A stretch of DNA of 64,000 nt from a virus. Positions within the stretch are counted from its first letter, which is position 1, and each line of letters opens with the position of its first letter. Both the position numbers and the translations under genes were made by a program. This document shows, piece by piece, positions 22,970 to 63,810 of this stretch. Below the pieces are notes generated by a model. That model did not search any database, was not told the origin of the DNA, and saw only the letters and a program-made list of their open reading frames with translations. The DNA is taken from positions 77,096 to 141,095 of the IMG/VR virus record IMGVR_UViG_3300032070_000613, one strand, 5' to 3'.

Positions 22970-23190
22970 AAATGACGTTGTGGGAGTCTAGGGAGCTTAT
23001 TCAATAAAATGAATATGCAGACGTTACAACCAAAGTTCAAGAACGTACCTACGGATGCTTCACTAGTCCGTAGCTCTACAACTCTACCATTAAACAGGAA
23101 CGAAAGCGCCAGTGTGGTAGAGAAAGTACTGAGTTGTAACAATCCCGAAGTGAATCTACGGAAACAGGTATCCGGACTTACAGTCATTGT
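22948..23190 (+). ncRNA. omegaRNA scaffold (copy 1), boundaries approximate
   Basis: Structured ~240 nt region directly upstream of the PLMP codons (CTACGGATGCTTCACTAGTCCGTAG hairpin, TAAACAG...CAGTG, AACAATCCCGAAG), conserved in three copies. Confidence 0.8.
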
Positions 23191-47369: not shown

Positions 47370-48532
47370 CCGATGAAATAGACATCAGTGACATCCTGGA
47401 AGATGAGGTGGAGGAGAGTCCCGCTCAATCCCAAGTGACTCCGGCTATCCCCGACTCTCCAGACAGCCCCGCCCGGAAAGAAATAGCGCAGCTGAGAGAT
47501 CGTCTGAGAGTATCTCACGAGCACTGCCGTGATCTTTTCGTGGATATGAGGACTGTGGACTACATAGCTACTCCCGATGACTCCTATATCGAATTTCTGG
47601 ATAAAAATTATTACGACAAAAGGCTGTATTTTAAAGTGGACCCTCAGAGACCGAATGATCCTAAAATCATAATAGCCCAGCAGCAATTTTGCAAGCTGCT
47701 AGGTATCCCCTATAAATTTTTTGCCGCTAACAGGCCCTCCCTGAAAATGAACATCGTGAAGACCTGGCAGGCAGGCCTGACCGCGGATGAGAGTAAAGCC
47801 CAGAGCGTCCTCAAAATTCGGGAGTCTAAAGATTGCTCTATCATCAGAGCATTCATACCAGTAACTAAATGCTGCGTACCTCTCTATGAACTCATAGACA
47901 TAATCCTGAATGGCGTGACTATCCCTCTCACAATGGAGTTCGTGTACGGGGATGAAAGGGATGATTTGATATTACACGCCCGTTTTCTTTTTAACAAAGA
48001 ATATACGGTACTGGGATCTAAGGTGTGCGTGGGATTTTCTTTGATAGCGTCTGAGCTGGATGCCTCCCCATTCATAATAGAAATCTTTTTACATGATAAA
48101 GAGTTTGCAACTTCGTATATTAGTACATATGGCGGGGACCCCTTTTTCAAGTCTAAATATGACGGTATCAAAGCGGATCAAATTAAAGATCTGATCCCTA
48201 AAATGTTAAACAGAATCGATAGTGAAGCTCCCGAAATGATAGAAAGGGTAGAGAAGAAAGTATCCGATACTATGCAGAGCGGATTTTTTTGTGCGGAAAC
48301 TGAGTGCGTATCGCTACTGAAAGCTAAGGGTATCAACGGCAAAGTGAAAAAAGCGGTATATCATCAGATTACTGAGTGCCAGGATAAAATCAAAACTCCC
48401 TGGGATATTGCTCGTCACGTGGGTCTGGTGGCTAAAGATTTAGATTCGATAAAGAGGCTCGCTGTAGAGCGGGCTATAGGTCAATATTTGCGACTAACTT
48501 TTTCTAACCCTACAACGTCATATAAAAAATGA
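47366..48532 (+). CDS. Hypothetical protein (DUF932-like); last 8 residues supplied by the IscB element
   Basis: QQFCKLLGIPYKF motif; C-terminal NPTTSYKK is encoded inside the element's left end. Confidence 0.5.
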   Translation: MTDEIDISDILEDEVEESPAQSQVTPAIPDSPDSPARKEIAQLRDRLRVSHEHCRDLFVDMRTVDYIATPDDSYIEFLDKNYYDKRLYFKVDPQRPNDPKIIIAQQQFCKLLGIPYKFFAANRPSLKMNIVKTWQAGLTADESKAQSVLKIRESKDCSIIRAFIPVTKCCVPLYELIDIILNGVTIPLTMEFVYGDERDDLILHARFLFNKEYTVLGSKVCVGFSLIASELDASPFIIEIFLHDKEFATSYISTYGGDPFFKSKYDGIKADQIKDLIPKMLNRIDSEAPEMIERVEKKVSDTMQSGFFCAETECVSLLKAKGINGKVKKAVYHQITECQDKIKTPWDIARHVGLVAKDLDSIKRLAVERAIGQYLRLTFSNPTTSYKK

Positions 48533-48750
48533 CGATGTAGGAGTCTAGGGAGCTTATTCAGTAACATGAATATGCAGACGTTACAACCAAAGTTCAAGAA
48601 CGTACCTACGGATGCTTCACTAGTCTGTAGCTCTACAACTCTACCATTAAACAGGAACGAAAGCGCCAGTGTGGTAGAGAAAGTACTGAGTTGTAACAAT
48701 CCCGAAGTGAATCTTCACTGGAAACGGGTATCCGGACTTAAAGTCATTGT
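48504..48750 (+). ncRNA. omegaRNA scaffold (copy 2), boundaries approximate
   Basis: Near-identical to the 22948-23190 scaffold; directly upstream of PLMP. Confidence 0.8.
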
Positions 48751-60261: not shown

Positions 60262-60290
60262 TTGACATTTATTTGAAAATGTCGTATATT
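60262..60290 (+). promoter_or_regulatory. Sigma70-type promoter driving the ncRNA cluster
   Basis: TTGACA-17 nt-TATATT with an A/T-rich upstream element. Confidence 0.8.
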
Positions 60291-60295
60291 AGAGT

Positions 60296-60307
60296 AGCTC
60301 TTTGAAA
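60296..60307 (+). promoter_or_regulatory. boxA-like antitermination site
   Basis: AGCTCTTTGAAA matches rrn-type boxA (GYTCTTTRAMA) just after the predicted TSS; a second copy GTTCTTTGATAA lies at 60917-60928. Confidence 0.55.
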
Positions 60308-60331
60308 TAGTTATTTTAGTAAGCACAAGCA

Positions 60332-60593
60332 GTAACCCTACAACGTCACTTAATAAATGACGCTGTGGGAGTCTAGGGAGCTTATTCAGTAAAATGAATA
60401 TGCAGACGTTACAACCAGAGTTCAAGAACGTACCTACGGATGCTTCACTAGTCCGTAGCTCTACAAATCTCTCTTTAAACAGACTGGAAACGGTCAGTGA
60501 GAGAGGTATAGTACTGGGCTGTAACAATCCCGAAGTGAATCTACGGAAACAGGTATCCGGACTTATAGTCACTGTACCTGTATATGAGTCCTT
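60332..60593 (+). ncRNA. Orphan omegaRNA (no IscB ORF)
   Basis: Homologous to the other two scaffolds; homology stops just before the PLMP codons; no right end. Confidence 0.8.
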
Positions 60594-60623: not shown

Positions 60624-60737
60624 GATAGTCTAATCTTTTATCGTAATGTGCCTACATCAGGCACACACCCCATGAGCCTTAGTTTAAAGCCGGGTTCATG
60701 GGGGTGTGCCGCACCTTAAAGCACACACAACTCGGAT
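60624..60737 (+). ncRNA. Y-RNA-like unit 1 (box A 60633-60657, long hairpin 60660-60710, box B 60719-60737)
   Basis: Shared box A/box B scaffold; ~19 bp GC-rich hairpin cargo. Confidence 0.6.
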
Positions 60738-60767
60738 AAAGTCATCATCCGTAAAAACGGATGATCC

Positions 60768-60902
60768 ACATCCTTTACCGCAAGGGCTTACATGATCTCA
60801 TAAATCATCGCCGGGCCTTAGAGCCCGGCACCCAGAGAGGCGACCGCCCTCAGTGGCGGAAACGTGCTCTGGAAAGCACTCGCAACTTGGATGTAGATTA
60901 TC
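60768..60902 (+). ncRNA. Y-RNA-like unit 2 (CAU anticodon arm plus GC-rich hairpins)
   Basis: Box A 60770-60793, box B 60874-60892; ATGAT-CTCATAA-ATCAT arm. Confidence 0.65.
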
Positions 60903-60941
60903 TTTTCGAATATGTCGTTCTTTGATAATATGAATAGAAGT

Positions 60942-61079
60942 TAAAAATTTTCATCCTTTATCGTATGGGCTTACATGGATAATGTTTTTATCTCATAAAT
61001 AAAAGCTAGATCGTTCAAACCGATCAAATCCCGTAAGGGATGGTTACTCAAGCACTTACAACTCGGATGAAAATTTTTA
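60942..61079 (+). ncRNA. Y-RNA-like unit 3 (CAU anticodon arm, T-arm, GNRA hairpin)
   Basis: Perfect 15 bp closing stem; box A 60953-60976, box B 61050-61068. Confidence 0.7.
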
Positions 61080-61084
61080 TATAG

Positions 61085-61252
61085 GTCGCTCTTTGATAGA
61101 GCGTGGATTGAAACAAGTCCAGCAAAGCGAACCAAAAACTGCAGCCGAGACTCGCGCATGTTCTTTTTGTCACTCTTTTAGAGAGCGTGGATTGAAACAA
61201 ATCAAGAAGAAAGCACCAAAAGTTGCATCTGAGATTTGCACACGTTTTTTAA
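61085..61252 (+). CRISPR. Two type I-C-like repeats (61085-61114, 61169-61198), each followed by a related ~54 nt sequence; no cas genes in window
   Basis: GTCGCTCTTTGATAGAGCGTGGATTGAAAC and GTCACTCTTTTAGAGAGCGTGGATTGAAAC; internal hairpin and GGATTGAAAC end typical of I-C repeats. Confidence 0.7.
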
Positions 61253-61257
61253 ATCGA

Positions 61258-61411
61258 AATTAAAAATGTATCTTTTACAGTGTGAACTTACATTTAGTCT
61301 TGGTTCGACTCCAAGTTAGCCCACGAAAGTAGGCTAGTAGTTCAACGGTAGAACAGTTGCCTATTAAGCAATCAAAAAAATAGTACGCACGACTCAGATA
61401 CATTTTTAATT
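61258..61411 (+). ncRNA. YrlA-like Y RNA unit 4 with circularly permuted tRNA domain
   Basis: Perfect 16 bp closing stem; T arm, GAAA-capped acceptor, D arm and anticodon arm in permuted order; near a Ro60-like gene. Confidence 0.8.
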
Positions 61412-61414
61412 CAT

Positions 61415-61450
61415 AAGCCGAGGAAGTTTAGCAGCTCTCTCGGCTTTTTT
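61415..61450 (+). terminator. Intrinsic terminator of the ncRNA cluster
   Basis: AAGCCGAG...CTCGGCTT stem plus T-tract. Confidence 0.7.
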
Positions 61451-61456
61451 ATTTGC

Positions 61457-61904: not shown

Positions 61905-62162
61905 ATGGCAGGCGTACATGTAGTTTATAACGGTCGTAACGAGGACATCGCATTCGAGCAGCTCTTCACGCCCGAGCGCCGTGCCGGAGTTGGCATCGCG
62001 GATGGGATTGTACTCTCGTCCTCAAACGTGACTGAGGACCAGGTGAAACGCGCCTTGTCTCAGTATTATGATGTCGGTGTGGGAGAATTTGACGATCATT
62101 TCGTCGAACTCAACCCAAACGGTAACGTGACCGTCCGTCCGAATACTCCTTTCGGTGGGTAA
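61905..62162 (+). CDS. Small putative ubiquitin-like (beta-grasp) protein ending in Gly-Gly
   Basis: Strong AGGAGG RBS; 85 aa; beta-beta-alpha-beta-beta-like pattern; C-terminus RPNTPFGG. Confidence 0.55.
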   Translation: MAGVHVVYNGRNEDIAFEQLFTPERRAGVGIADGIVLSSSNVTEDQVKRALSQYYDVGVGEFDDHFVELNPNGNVTVRPNTPFGG

Positions 62163-62223: not shown

Positions 62224-63810
62224 ATGGCTACCGCTACTCAGAAAAATACAGCCGCTCCGGAAAAAGAAGAAGACCTGCGGGTAAAAATCCTCAACACCTT
62301 CATGACGTGTGACCACCGAAATACCGAAATGTCAATGAAAGTGCACCAAGAGGTCCAGACGAAGGATCCCCTGTTCTATGCGCACCTCGCATGCTGGTAC
62401 CGTAAGAACGGCGAACTCCGAGATGTCAATGAGGTATTCTCGGCGCTGCTCAGTGTGGATCCATATCTCCCTAACCGTGAGGTAGGCCTGGCGCTTTTCC
62501 GGGAGCAGGCCCCATTCATGAAACGGCGCATCCTGGGTTTCATTAAGGGCAAGAAAGTCAAAGTCCGTGAGAAGACTGGTAAAAAAATCAAAATCGGTAA
62601 GAAGACCGTGGATGAAGTCAAAATCACCGAGAAAAAGGTAGGTCTCGATAAATCCCTGCCGACTGCGTTCAAGACGGAGGTCACGCGATATCTACGCTGG
62701 CTGGAGTCCAATACGGAGAAGTTTGATACGGTCGCTATCCGTAATGCTAAAGATCTAAAGGCACTCTATGCCTCTAACGGTCTGCAGATCAAACCATCGC
62801 CGCGGGCGCAGGCTATCCTATTCGATAAGGAGTATCCGAAAGATAGTAAGCTGAATATTTTCGAGAAAATCAGCACAGCAAAAACTCCCGAAGAAGCTGC
62901 GAAGCTCATTGTGGAGAACAAAGTCCCGTATACCGTCGCTGTGGGTTTGGTGGAAAAAATCACTCCATCTATCCTGGTGGCGCTCATCGATGCTATGAGT
63001 CCTCAGGAGTTGATCAACAATGTCGCCTCTCTGGAAGAAAAGGGAGCGATGGACAATCCGGACGTCAAAAAGCTGATCCAGGCTAAACTGGGGAAAGCTG
63101 AGAAATCCAAAACAGTCGCCACTTTGAAATCCAAAACAGCGAAAGCTACTGGTCGTATCAAGGATGAAGAAGTCCTCAAGCAGCTTGATAAGGTAGCTGA
63201 TGAGCAGGTCAAAAAGAGTGGTACTATTAAAGTCCCTACTGCGATCTTTATTGATCAGTCTGGTTCTATGGATAAAGCGATCGATGTAGGTAAGCGGTGT
63301 GCGGCGCTGGTGTCTGGTGTCACTACCGCCGATCTACATGTAGTTTGTTTTAATACGGCGGCTACCCCGATCACGTCTACGGAGAAGACTCTGACTGGTT
63401 GGGAGAGGGCGTTTGCGCCTATTCATGCCAATGGGGGTACGTCTATTGGGTGTGCCCTGGATTATCTGATGCGGCGTGGGCATGCGGTGGAGCAGCTCGT
63501 GGTTATTACGGATGAGCTAGAGAATAGCGCTCCGTTTTTCACAGATGTTTTTGCTAAGTATAAGGAGCAGGCCAAAGCCACTCCGCACGTTGTGATCATC
63601 AATGTCAGTGCGACGGCGCATAGCTATAGTGATCAGATTCTTCATGAGAGTTTGGATAAAGCGAAGATTACATATGATGTATATAAGCCCGCGAATTCAG
63701 ATTATTACGGGCTGCCGGGTTTAGTGACGTTACTATCTCGTAAGTCCAAACTGGATCTTGTGTATGAAATTCTGGATACGCCTTTGCTGGTCCGGAGGGA
63801 TTTTCGATAG
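62224..63810 (+). CDS. Ro60/TROVE-like RNA-binding protein with C-terminal vWA (MIDAS) domain
   Basis: N-terminal DPLFYAHLACWYRKNGELRD (TROVE-like), helical basic middle, IDQSGSM / GGTSIG / VITDELEN MIDAS motifs; GGAGG RBS. Confidence 0.75.
   Translation: MATATQKNTAAPEKEEDLRVKILNTFMTCDHRNTEMSMKVHQEVQTKDPLFYAHLACWYRKNGELRDVNEVFSALLSVDPYLPNREVGLALFREQAPFMKRRILGFIKGKKVKVREKTGKKIKIGKKTVDEVKITEKKVGLDKSLPTAFKTEVTRYLRWLESNTEKFDTVAIRNAKDLKALYASNGLQIKPSPRAQAILFDKEYPKDSKLNIFEKISTAKTPEEAAKLIVENKVPYTVAVGLVEKITPSILVALIDAMSPQELINNVASLEEKGAMDNPDVKKLIQAKLGKAEKSKTVATLKSKTAKATGRIKDEEVLKQLDKVADEQVKKSGTIKVPTAIFIDQSGSMDKAIDVGKRCAALVSGVTTADLHVVCFNTAATPITSTEKTLTGWERAFAPIHANGGTSIGCALDYLMRRGHAVEQLVVITDELENSAPFFTDVFAKYKEQAKATPHVVIINVSATAHSYSDQILHESLDKAKITYDVYKPANSDYYGLPGLVTLLSRKSKLDLVYEILDTPLLVRRDFR

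What the first reader, a model, noticed from the sequence alone, without database searches (positions are those of the whole stretch)
61085..61252. Two type I-C-like repeats whose 'spacers' are homologous to each other: candidate RNA anti-CRISPR or regulatory crRNA mimics
Seen: 30 nt repeats with an 84 nt period. The sequences after each repeat align without gaps at 36 of 52 positions, are longer (54 nt) than typical I-C spacers, and both end in a TGC..GAGA..GCA segment plus a T-tract. No cas genes are in the window. Established: I-C repeats are processed by Cas5d, and phages carry solitary repeat units (Racrs) and mini-arrays that exploit host Cascade. Inference: a duplicated, diverged repeat-plus-tail unit that sequesters or redirects host I-C Cascade, or that borrows Cas5d to process the RNA operon. 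It also points to a host with type I-C CRISPR.
Basis: partly seen in the sequence, partly recalled or inferred. Interest (0 to 1): 0.8.

Follow-up and report, generated by a model that had tools for sequence, protein, structure and literature searches.

The report
Tandem CRISPR-repeat decoys in phage RNA operon
A very large sediment phage carries two copies of a bacterial type I-C CRISPR repeat inside its Ro60-linked small-RNA operon, each joined to the leftover end of a tRNA-like RNA, most likely as RNA decoys against host CRISPR immunity, a known trick in an unreported setting.

Summary
Two 30-nt repeats (61085-61114, 61169-61198; 27/30 identical) lie 84 nt apart, and their 54-nt tails are 36/54 identical (0 of 100,000 shuffles reach this).

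The repeats have genuine type I-C architecture: GT, a 6-bp stem, a pentaloop and the exact 11-nt handle UGGAUUGAAAC.

The tails are not spacers. They are the 3' remnant of a tRNA-bearing, Y-RNA-like module that is intact at the same place in related phages. Each tail starts at tRNA position 57, directly after the T-loop TTC, which is the I-C PAM.

The units lie on the sense strand of a promoter-to-terminator ncRNA operon (HEARO RNA plus four Y-like modules), upstream of a gene whose model has the Ro60 fold.

Lone I-C units with different, compensated stems occur in the same operon in 11 of 56 related phage lineages. No Cas5d or Cas7 gene was found in the available phage fragments.

Best reading (about 0.45): Racr-like decoy RNAs that load host Cas5c/Cas7. 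Rivals are guides against repeat-free sister alleles, Cas5c-dependent RNA processing, and a recombination scar.

This scan has already reported lone I-C repeats in Ro60 RNA arrays of other phages. No activity has been shown and the host is unknown.

The parts
60262..60290 (+). Sigma-70-like promoter of the ncRNA operon (TTGACA-17-TATATT)
   Evidence: 11 of 12 consensus matches, the best in the region. Equivalent promoters head the operon in relatives. A consensus match only.
60359..60544 (+). HEARO (IscB omega-RNA-type) RNA with no IscB ORF behind it; first RNA of the operon
   Evidence: Rfam RF02033, 90.2 bits against a gathering score of 83. No long ORF follows it.
60624..61079 (+). Three Y-RNA-like scaffold modules (about 60624-60742, 60769-60895, 60942-61079) with shared 5' (TTTAYCG..GGCTTACAT) and 3' (AAGCAC..ACAACTCGGAT) strands and different cargo
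   Evidence: Repeat families D2 and D3 and closing inverted repeat I5. The same scaffolds occur in relatives.
61085..61114 (+). Type I-C-like repeat 1: GT, 6-bp stem CGCTCT/AGAGCG, loop TTGAT, 11-nt handle TGGATTGAAAC. The predicted Cas5c cut lies between 61103 and 61104.
   Evidence: The architecture follows PMC8524198. The handle and the GTCGC..GCG frame are identical to repeats of arrays next to cas8c-cas7-cas4-cas1-cas2. Weak Rfam CRISPR-DR9 hit.
61115..61168 (+). Tail 1: remnant of a tRNA-bearing scaffold module = T-loop 57-60 (AAGT), T-stem 3' strand (CCAGC), acceptor 3' strand (AAAGCGA), ACCA, linker, 3' scaffold strand (CTGCAGCCGAGACTCGCGCA), T-run
   Evidence: Alignment A3 with intact modules of L014, L018, L021, L163 and L169. 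ARAGORN calls tRNAs in those modules. The best repeat-free allele, L169, has TTC followed by a 31/35 match.
61169..61198 (+). Type I-C-like repeat 2 (3 differences from repeat 1; one stem pair is an A.C mismatch; handle identical). The predicted Cas5c cut lies between 61187 and 61188.
61199..61252 (+). Tail 2: diverged copy of the same remnant (AAAT, CAAGA, AGAAAGC, A, CCA, linker, TTGCATCTGAGATTTGCACA, T-run)
   Evidence: It shares its first 8 nt (AAATCAAG) with the tail of the second unit of L147.
61258..61411 (+). Fourth scaffold module with a YrlA-like, permuted tRNA-like cargo
   Evidence: Sub-threshold Rfam YrlA hit (26.3 bits, E 0.009). Closing 16-nt inverted repeat I3. 100% identical in L161.
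61415..61451 (+). Hairpin plus T-run that ends the RNA operon
   Evidence: Read from the sequence. Conserved in relatives. Not called by the simple scan.
62224..63810 (+). Ro60/Rsr-like gene (TROVE-type HEAT ring plus vWA), the conserved partner of the RNA operon
   Evidence: Weak Pfam vWA_Ro60 and VWA_CoxE hits. AF2 model pLDDT 80.4. Full-length Foldseek matches to Ro60 structures 9nfa, 1yvp, 2nvo and 9l5y at E 3e-11 to 3e-9.

Best explanation
The two units are phage-borne type I-C repeat units of the solitary-repeat / RNA anti-CRISPR (Racr) kind. They are transcribed as part of the phage's Ro60-associated small-RNA operon.

Inferred mechanism:
- In a host with a type I-C system, Cas5c recognises the hairpin base and the UGG...handle and cuts at 61103/61104 and 61187/61188.
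- Cas5c then stays on the 11-nt 5' handle.
- Cas7 (and Cas8c) assemble along the 54-nt tails, which act as non-targeting pseudo-spacers.
- This draws Cas subunits away from phage-targeting crRNAs.

Origin of the tails: they are what remains of a tRNA-bearing Y-like module after a repeat replaced everything 5' of tRNA position 57. The 84-nt unit then duplicated, and selection kept the repeats while the tails drifted.

Shown: the anatomy, the homologies, strand and operon context, and recurrence across related phages.
Inferred: transcription, Cas5c cleavage, Cas sequestration and any benefit to the phage.
For: 1. I-C architecture. The units have a 2-nt 5' overhang, a 6-bp stem, a pentaloop and an 11-nt 3' overhang identical to the I-C handle. 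Biochemistry in PMC8524198 says Cas5c reads the cut site and the handle (UGG) rather than the loop, and sits on the 5' handle in Cascade.
2. The repeat family is I-C. Arrays with it lie next to cas8c-cas7-cas4-cas1-cas2.
3. Not an array. Tails are 54 nt, against 32-37 nt for 98% of 1,856 genuine spacers. The repeat is 30 nt, against 31-34 nt.
4. Selection acts on the repeat and not the tail.
   - Differences are 3/30 in the repeats against 18/54 in the tails (Fisher p 0.015).
   - In L161 (98% identical Ro60) the orthologous repeat is 29/30 identical while its tail has decayed to A-rich sequence.
5. Recurrence. Eleven of 56 distinct related lineages carry 1-3 such units in the same operon, all on the sense strand. 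The handle is invariant, and stems differ through compensatory changes.
6. Turnover. Patchy presence and fast turnover between near-identical phages fit an arms-race element.
7. No phage cas genes. No Cas5d or Cas7 was found in the 141-kb and 210-kb phage records, so a host enzyme is the likely partner.
8. Precedent. Lone repeats, including RacrIC1, and even a non-targeting crRNA, inhibit interference experimentally (PMC10651486).
Against: - No expression or processing data exist; no RNA run holds the region.
- The host is unknown, and no host array with this exact repeat was found; the closest differ by 4 or more edits.
- The nearest consensus promoter is about 800 nt upstream, so expression depends on read-through of several modules that end in T-runs.
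- The phage records are only 30-45% complete, so a phage-encoded Cas5/Cas6-type enzyme cannot be excluded.
- The stems are shorter and weaker than in genuine repeats, and repeat 2 has a mismatch.
- The junction right after a TTC PAM is not predicted by a pure decoy model.
Confidence: 0.45

Rival explanations
1. Guide against repeat-free sister alleles (inter-phage exclusion or protein-free 'homing'). The repeat sits exactly where a TTC PAM lies in related phages. After Cas5c cutting, the resident downstream sequence therefore becomes a crRNA-like guide. It would direct the host's I-C Cascade-Cas3 at co-infecting relatives that still carry the intact tRNA module. The phage's own copy is protected because its PAM has been replaced by the repeat.
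For: - Both tails begin at tRNA position 57, directly after the T-loop TTC.
- Repeat-free alleles read TTC followed by a 31/35 match (L169) or a 28/35 match (L163), and seed positions 1-7 are perfect in L169.
- At an independent site, the L165 unit replaces a 20-nt linker that ends in TTC in L163 and L014, and the next 25 nt are identical.
- Two of 5 testable junctions have TTC, against a 1.8% background (p about 0.003).
- L014-type alleles occur in two other sediment runs that also hold parts of this region (X5, X3).
- Cas5c binds the 5' handle, so a lone repeat could suffice in type I-C.
Against: - No perfect or near-perfect target for either tail was found in IMG/VR or in the fetched loci. 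Tail 2 has no match above 23/35.
- Three of 5 testable junctions have TTT or TTA, not TTC.
- The L161 tail is low-complexity and could guide nothing.
- The distance to the next repeat is 54 nt, not about 35 nt.
- The match to relatives is expected from common descent alone.
Confidence: 0.2
2. RNA punctuation. The units are cleavage sites that let a Cas5c-type endoribonuclease cut the polycistronic operon into individual Y-like RNAs. The enzyme could be the host's, or a phage enzyme in the unsequenced part of the genome.
For: - Units always lie on the sense strand at module boundaries. They sit directly 5' of complete modules in L149, L165, L198, L202, L204 and L224, and immediately before M4 in L161.
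Against: - Forty-five of 56 related lineages run the same operon without any unit, so units are dispensable for processing.
- Number and position change between 98%-identical phages.
- No Cas5d or Cas7 was found in the available records.
- In the window the units flank only module remnants, not a functional module.
Confidence: 0.15
3. Mostly a scar. A host I-C spacer that targeted the phage's tRNA module next to the T-loop TTC recombined with its protospacer. This left a repeat in place of the PAM and destroyed the target, so the phage escaped. The unit then duplicated and has no further function.
For: - The PAM-adjacent junction and the loss of the module's 5' two-thirds.
- Spacer-protospacer recombination between phages and CRISPR loci is documented (Varble et al. 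2019, from my own knowledge; not read here).
Against: - Repeats are conserved better than tails. The handle is invariant and the stems are compensated across 17 units in 11 lineages. Both argue for selection on the RNA.
- No host-array sequence lies upstream of repeat 1.
Confidence: 0.12
4. A genuine mini-CRISPR array with two acquired spacers.
For: Two repeats lie in tandem in crRNA orientation.
Against: - Tails are 54 nt, against 32-37 nt in genuine arrays.
- There is no terminal repeat.
- Each tail is homologous over its whole length, T-run included, to the resident module of sister phages at the same operon position.
- No protospacers were found.
Confidence: 0.03

Closest known systems
Viral solitary repeat units / RNA anti-CRISPRs, especially RacrIC1 (Camara-Wilpert et al. 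2023, PMC10651486)
   Same: A CRISPR-repeat mimic in the intergenic DNA of a virus without cas genes, of I-C type and transcribed in the crRNA orientation. It is expected to bind the processing nuclease and Cas7 and so compete with crRNAs.
   Different: - Two units in tandem; SRUFinder discards hits that lie near other repeats.
- No promoter of its own within 250 bp.
- Embedded in a Ro60-associated Y-RNA operon rather than beside acr genes.
- The downstream part is a remnant of a tRNA-like module that starts at a PAM-adjacent position.
- Activity untested.
Viral crRNA-like regulatory RNAs (Cracr; Liu et al. preprint 10.1101/2024.10.29.618823)
   Same: Phage-borne repeat-plus-pseudo-spacer units, sometimes multiplexed like small arrays, that reprogram host Cas proteins.
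   Different: Cracr spacers are partly complementary to host cas or toxin promoters. Here the tails derive from the phage's own tRNA-like module, and no host target can be named because the host is unknown.
Virus-borne mini-CRISPR arrays aimed at related viruses
   Same: Repeat units in a virus whose downstream sequence matches related viruses next to a PAM.
   Different: The 'spacer' here is resident sequence of non-canonical length that was never acquired, and the known matches are imperfect (31/35 at best).
Type I-C CRISPR arrays (e.g. L090: cas8c-cas7-cas4-cas1-cas2 plus array)
   Same: The same repeat frame, GTCGC-stem-loop-stem-GCGTGGATTGAAAC, and the same strand logic.
   Different: - 30-nt repeat with a 6-bp A/T-rich stem, against 31-34 nt with a 7-bp stem.
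- 54-nt intervals, against 32-37 nt.
- Only two repeats, with no cas genes and no leader.
Bacterial and phage Ro60 with Y RNAs / YrlA (Chen et al. 2014, PMC4201824; phiLo Ro60, PMC12135203)
   Same: Context only. A Ro60 gene is preceded by Y-like RNAs with tRNA-like domains, as here.
   Different: The one Ro60 paper I read (phiLo, PMC12135203) mentions no CRISPR repeats in its Y-RNA locus, and a full-text search turned up no such report.

Membership tests
Type I-C CRISPR repeat | Hairpin with a 2-nt 5' overhang, a stem of about 7 bp, a pentaloop and an 11-nt 3' overhang (PMC8524198) | tested here: met
   Repeat 1 has GT, a 6-bp stem, loop TTGAT and an 11-nt overhang. Repeat 2 is the same with one A.C mismatch. 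The stem is one pair shorter than the canonical one.
Type I-C CRISPR repeat | Handle UGGAUUGAAAC, shared with repeats of arrays adjacent to I-C cas genes | tested here: met
   The 11-nt handle (within an exact 12-nt match, GTGGATTGAAAC) is identical in both units. The same frame forms arrays in at least 120 genome loci. L090 has cas8c (Csd1), cas7, cas4, cas1 and cas2 beside such an array.
Type I-C CRISPR repeat | Member of an array with spacers of 32-37 nt | tested here: not met
   There are only two repeats, with 54-nt intervals and no terminal repeat. Of 1,856 genuine spacers, 98% are 32-37 nt.
Type I-C CRISPR repeat | [quoted passage not shown] | not testable with these tools
   Needs an RNA cleavage assay or RNA-seq. 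No RNA run holds the region.
Solitary repeat unit / Racr | Repeat mimic in an intergenic region of a virus or plasmid that lacks the cognate cas genes | tested here: met
   The record is an IMG/VR virus record. The region is noncoding and lies in an RNA operon. No Cas5d or Cas7 is present in 141 kb, but the record is only about 30% complete.
Solitary repeat unit / Racr | Not associated with other (partial) repeats | tested here: not met
   Two units lie 84 nt apart. In sister phages the units are single or up to three, and are spaced irregularly.
Solitary repeat unit / Racr | Promoter within 250 bp upstream (selection criterion in PMC10651486) | tested here: inconclusive
   The only strong consensus promoter on the + strand is at 60262-60290, about 800 nt upstream, at the head of the operon. 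Phage-specific promoters are not covered by the scan.
Solitary repeat unit / Racr | Host carries the matching CRISPR subtype | not testable with these tools
   The host is unknown. The repeat family occurs in many phyla, and none of 1,874 I-C spacers gave a convincing match to the phage.
Solitary repeat unit / Racr | Inhibits CRISPR interference | not testable with these tools
   Needs a phage or plasmid targeting assay.
Cracr / crRNA-like regulatory RNA | Pseudo-spacer partly complementary to a host cas or toxin promoter | not testable with these tools
   The host is unknown. The tails are explained by homology to a phage tRNA-like module, which makes this reading unlikely.
Virus-borne mini-array against related viruses | Spacer matches a related virus next to the correct PAM | tested here: inconclusive
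   Tail 1 against L169 gives TTC followed by 31/35, and against L163 gives TTC followed by 28/35. No exact target was found, and tail 2 has no match.

The most novel reading that the evidence does not exclude
Lone type I-C repeats in these Ro60-operon phages may be protein-free selfish or exclusion cassettes. A repeat lands exactly on a TTC PAM, either the T-loop of a tRNA-like module or a linker. This protects the phage's own copy and turns the resident downstream RNA into a guide. The host's Cascade-Cas3 would then be directed against co-infecting sister phages that keep the intact allele. In type I-C a single repeat could be enough, because Cas5c both cuts the RNA and nucleates Cascade on the 5' handle.
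Probability: 0.15. Interest if true: 0.8.

Novelty: new variant of a known kind. Interest (0 to 1): 0.5.

Why it matters
If the units act on host type I-C systems, they extend RNA anti-CRISPRs to a large clade of huge environmental phages. They would also show that such elements are recruited repeatedly into one specific, highly structured RNA operon (Ro60 with Y-like and tRNA-like RNAs). That operon could then serve as a predictable place to look for RNA-based counter-defence.

The PAM-adjacent junctions bear on two further questions. They hint at how phages acquire lone repeats, by recombination with host spacers or by PAM-directed insertion. They also raise the testable idea that a single I-C repeat can convert resident phage sequence into a guide.

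Tried and rejected
- **Self-targets.** No site in the 141-kb record matches either tail at 70% or more, apart from the tails themselves.
- **Protospacers or sister copies in IMG/VR.** The degenerate full-tail pattern gave 0 hits. TTC plus tail start gave 0 hits. A 19-nt T-arm plus tail-1 seed gave 3 unrelated hits, 21-22/35.
- **Exact repeat 3' part in IMG/VR.** Eleven loci matched. Most hits are in coding DNA; two or three are unrelated I-C-type repeat units (lone in L010 and L013, two repeats in L011); none is a homologue of the unit with its tail.
- **Host search.** The closest repeat differs by 4 edits. None of 1,874 spacers from those arrays gave a convincing hit on the phage or its relatives.
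- **Structure in the tails.** Folding z-scores are not significant, so there is no terminator-type hairpin.
- **RNA evidence.** No RNA holder is listed among public runs. Only DNA contigs could be laid, and they show no structural variants of the unit pair.
- **Protein-based search for relatives.** A single-protein query found nothing in IMG/VR. A profile was needed.
- **Sequence searches for the 528-aa protein.** NCBIfam and PDB sequence searches gave nothing. Only a fold comparison showed Ro60.
- **First cas-context check.** L022 showed cas2-cas1-cas4 and a Cas3-like helicase but no cas8c or cas7 in the 8 kb held. L090 was used instead.
- **Alignment of the units.** MAFFT does not keep the stems in register. 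I therefore used an anchored pair table and built no covariance model.
- **Coding reading.** ORF 61093-61263 was considered. The frame that makes the two tails look similar as peptides contains stops in the repeats, so this reading was dropped.
- **Chance or tRNA-derived origin of the repeat.** The first 19 nt resemble the module's 5' scaffold strand (L021), and GTCGC recurs in tRNA variable-loop/T-stem sequence. This was rejected as the sole explanation. The exact 12-nt GTGGATTGAAAC match, the hairpin placement, and the recurrence with compensated stems in 11 lineages all argue against it.

Full report
**1. What is there**

The window is the last 64 kb of a 141-kb IMG/VR virus record that CheckV rates about 30% complete, so it comes from a very large phage.

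- At 61085-61252 there are two direct copies of an 84-nt unit.
- Each unit is a 30-nt repeat (61085-61114 and 61169-61198; 27/30 identical, last 11 nt identical) followed by a 54-nt tail.
- The tails match at 36 of 54 positions without gaps. None of 100,000 shuffles exceeded 28.
- Contigs from a second sediment run carry the identical arrangement.

**2. The repeats are of type I-C**

- Repeat 1 reads GT, a 6-bp stem (CGCTCT/AGAGCG), a TTGAT loop, then TGGATTGAAAC.
- Biochemical work on Cas5c describes I-C repeats as a 2-nt 5' overhang, a 7-bp stem, a pentaloop and an 11-nt 3' overhang.
  - Recognition centres on the cut site and the first handle bases (UGG), not on the loop.
  - Cas5c ends up on the 5' handle in Cascade (PMC8524198).
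Most are multi-repeat arrays, from many phyla.
- One of these, L090, has cas8c(Csd1)-cas7-cas4-cas1-cas2 directly upstream.
- In those arrays the repeats are 31-34 nt, and 98% of 1,856 spacers are 32-37 nt.
- The phage repeat is a shortened, A/T-rich version. The nearest genomic repeat differs by 4 edits, so the host cannot be named from it.

**3. Context**

The units lie on the + strand inside a noncoding stretch. It runs from a near-consensus promoter (60262-60290) to a hairpin plus T-run (61415-61451). In order it contains:

- a HEARO / omega-type RNA with no IscB ORF behind it (60359-60544; Rfam 90 bits);
- three modules that share 5' and 3' scaffold strands and closing stems;
- the two repeat units;
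- a fourth module whose cargo gives a sub-threshold YrlA match.

Two small ORFs follow, and then a 528-aa protein.

- Its AlphaFold model (pLDDT 80) matches Ro60/Rsr structures over its full length, at Foldseek E 3e-11 to 3e-9. The matches include the Deinococcus and Thermus-phage proteins.
- The setting is therefore a phage Ro60 gene with a cluster of Y-like RNAs.
- That arrangement is known in outline for bacteria and one Thermus phage (PMC4201824; PMC12135203).

**4. The tails are module remnants, not spacers**

- Relatives were fetched through the Ro60-like protein.
- Phages 79-84% identical in that protein (L014, L018, L021) have the same operon but no I-C repeat.
- At the position just before the last, YrlA-like module they carry a scaffold module that encloses a complete tRNA. 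ARAGORN calls it, with odd and variable anticodons.
- Alignment A3 shows that each window tail is the 3' third of this module:

| Element | Tail 1 | Tail 2 |
|---|---|---|
| T-loop nt 57-60 | AAGT | AAAT |
| T-stem 3' strand | CCAGC | CAAGA |
| Acceptor 3' strand | AAAGCGA | AGAAAGC |
| Discriminator + CCA | ACCA | ACCA |

- That is why the two 'spacers' resemble each other.
- Folding gives them no significant structure of their own.
- Neither tail has a match elsewhere in the record or an exact match in IMG/VR.

**5. The same kind of unit recurs in the clade**

- Among 79 related loci with enough upstream sequence, grouped into 56 distinct lineages, 11 lineages carry one to three I-C-like units within the operon. 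All are on the sense strand.
- Across 17 units the handle is (nearly) invariant.
- The stems differ: GCTCT/AGAGC, GCGCCC/GGGTGC, ATGCC/GGCGT, ATACTTTT/AAAAGTAT, CACACTTAT/ATAAGTGTG, CAGGAA/TTCCTG, GCT/AGC.
- Pairing is kept at the first six stem positions through many pair types.
- L161 has a Ro60 protein 98% identical and a last module 100% identical.
  - It carries three units with three different stems.
  - Its copy of repeat 1 is 29/30 identical, while the tail behind it has decayed to A-rich sequence.
- Within the window the repeats differ at 3/30 positions and the tails at 18/54 (Fisher p 0.015).
- Together these show selection on the repeat RNA and little on the tail, with quick gain and loss.
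- No Cas5d or Cas7 (Csd2) match was found in this record or in the 210-kb record of L149. Both records are incomplete.

**6. Junctions**

- Both window tails, and the second unit of L147, start exactly at tRNA position 57. That is the base after the T-loop TTC, which is the I-C PAM.
- In repeat-free alleles the homologous point is indeed preceded by TTC. L169 gives TTC then 31/35 identical with positions 1-7 perfect. L163 gives TTC then 28/35.
- At an unrelated site, the L165 unit replaces a 20-nt linker that ends in TTC in L163 and L014. The following 25 nt are identical.
- Three other testable junctions have TTT or TTA.
- Two of five with TTC, against a 1.8% background, gives p of about 0.003. 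This is suggestive, but the counts are small.
- L014-type alleles occur in two other sediment runs that also hold parts of this region (X5, X3).

**7. Interpretation**

- The simplest reading is that these are solitary-repeat / Racr-type elements.
  - Lone repeats in viruses are widespread. RacrIC1 and even a non-targeting crRNA relieve targeting (PMC10651486).
  - In type I-C, Cas5c both cuts the RNA and nucleates Cascade on the 5' handle. A handle plus a 54-nt unstructured tail would therefore be a good sink for Cas5c, Cas7 and Cas8c.
  - I put this at about 0.45.
- The PAM-adjacent junctions keep a second reading alive (about 0.2). The resident downstream sequence may serve as a guide against sister phages that retain the intact allele.
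  - The lack of exact targets, the decayed L161 tail and the non-TTC junctions weigh against it.
- A role as Cas5c-dependent punctuation of the operon (about 0.15) fits the placement at module boundaries. However, the units are dispensable in 45 of 56 lineages.
- A pure recombination scar (about 0.12) explains the origin but not the conservation.
- A genuine mini-array is excluded by tail length and by full-length homology to the syntenic module.

**8. Novelty**

- The kind of element (viral lone repeats, Racr) is known.
- This scan has already reported lone I-C repeats in Ro60-associated RNA arrays of other phages (e1-5867136, e1-5867154, e1-5766120).
- New here:
  - the tandem form;
  - the demonstration that the 'spacers' are tRNA-module remnants starting at the T-loop PAM;
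  - the census showing recurrence in about a fifth of related lineages, with compensated stems.
- I found no paper that describes CRISPR repeats within Ro60/Y-RNA operons. That search covers open-access text only.
- No activity, expression or host is shown.

Noticed in passing
window 60359-60544 (also 22974-23159 and 48492-48717): Three HEARO / IscB omega-type RNAs pass the Rfam gathering score. The one at 60359 sits right after the operon promoter and has no IscB ORF behind it. It may be a stand-alone extra guide RNA for the two IscB elements elsewhere in the window.
   Followed up: no
window 60294-60310, 60914-60927, 61085-61098; L014, L018, L021 and L147 just after their promoters: A short motif, GT(N)G(Y)TCTTTGA(W)A, recurs right after the operon promoters of several phages and between modules. 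It overlaps the 5' half of repeat 1. Its meaning is unknown; it could be a transcript-start or processing signal, or chance.
   Followed up: partly
L014:2247-2321, L018:2635-2711, L021:2332-2404, 2493-2566 and 2844-2918, and others: Complete tRNAs are embedded between the Y-like scaffold strands in sister phages. They have unusual and rapidly changing anticodons (AAU, AUC, UGG-like, UCA) on otherwise conserved bodies, so they look like displayed tRNA cargo or decoys rather than decoding tRNAs. The window itself has no ARAGORN tRNA.
   Followed up: partly
L161:339-726: A phage with a 98% identical Ro60 protein and a 100% identical last module carries three I-C-like units with three different stems, and different modules upstream. 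The region 5' of the last module is a recombination hotspot.
   Followed up: partly
L147:2884-3100: Here two I-C units bracket a mini-module (5' scaffold, T-arm, 3' scaffold). A second copy of the 3' scaffold strand, with the same closing sequence GACACC, follows the second unit.
   Followed up: partly
window 61905-62162 and orthologues (L014:3096-3353, L018:3465-3722, L021:3652-3909): An 85-aa ORF of unknown family is conserved in length and position between the RNA operon and the Ro60-like gene in all close relatives. It may be a third component of the Ro60 module.
   Followed up: no
L172:2036-2100 and L186:3109-3165: Some units are followed within 6-20 nt by a partial second handle (TTTGGATTGATGC; GTAGATTGAAAT), which suggests local slippage or decay of repeat copies.
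   Followed up: no
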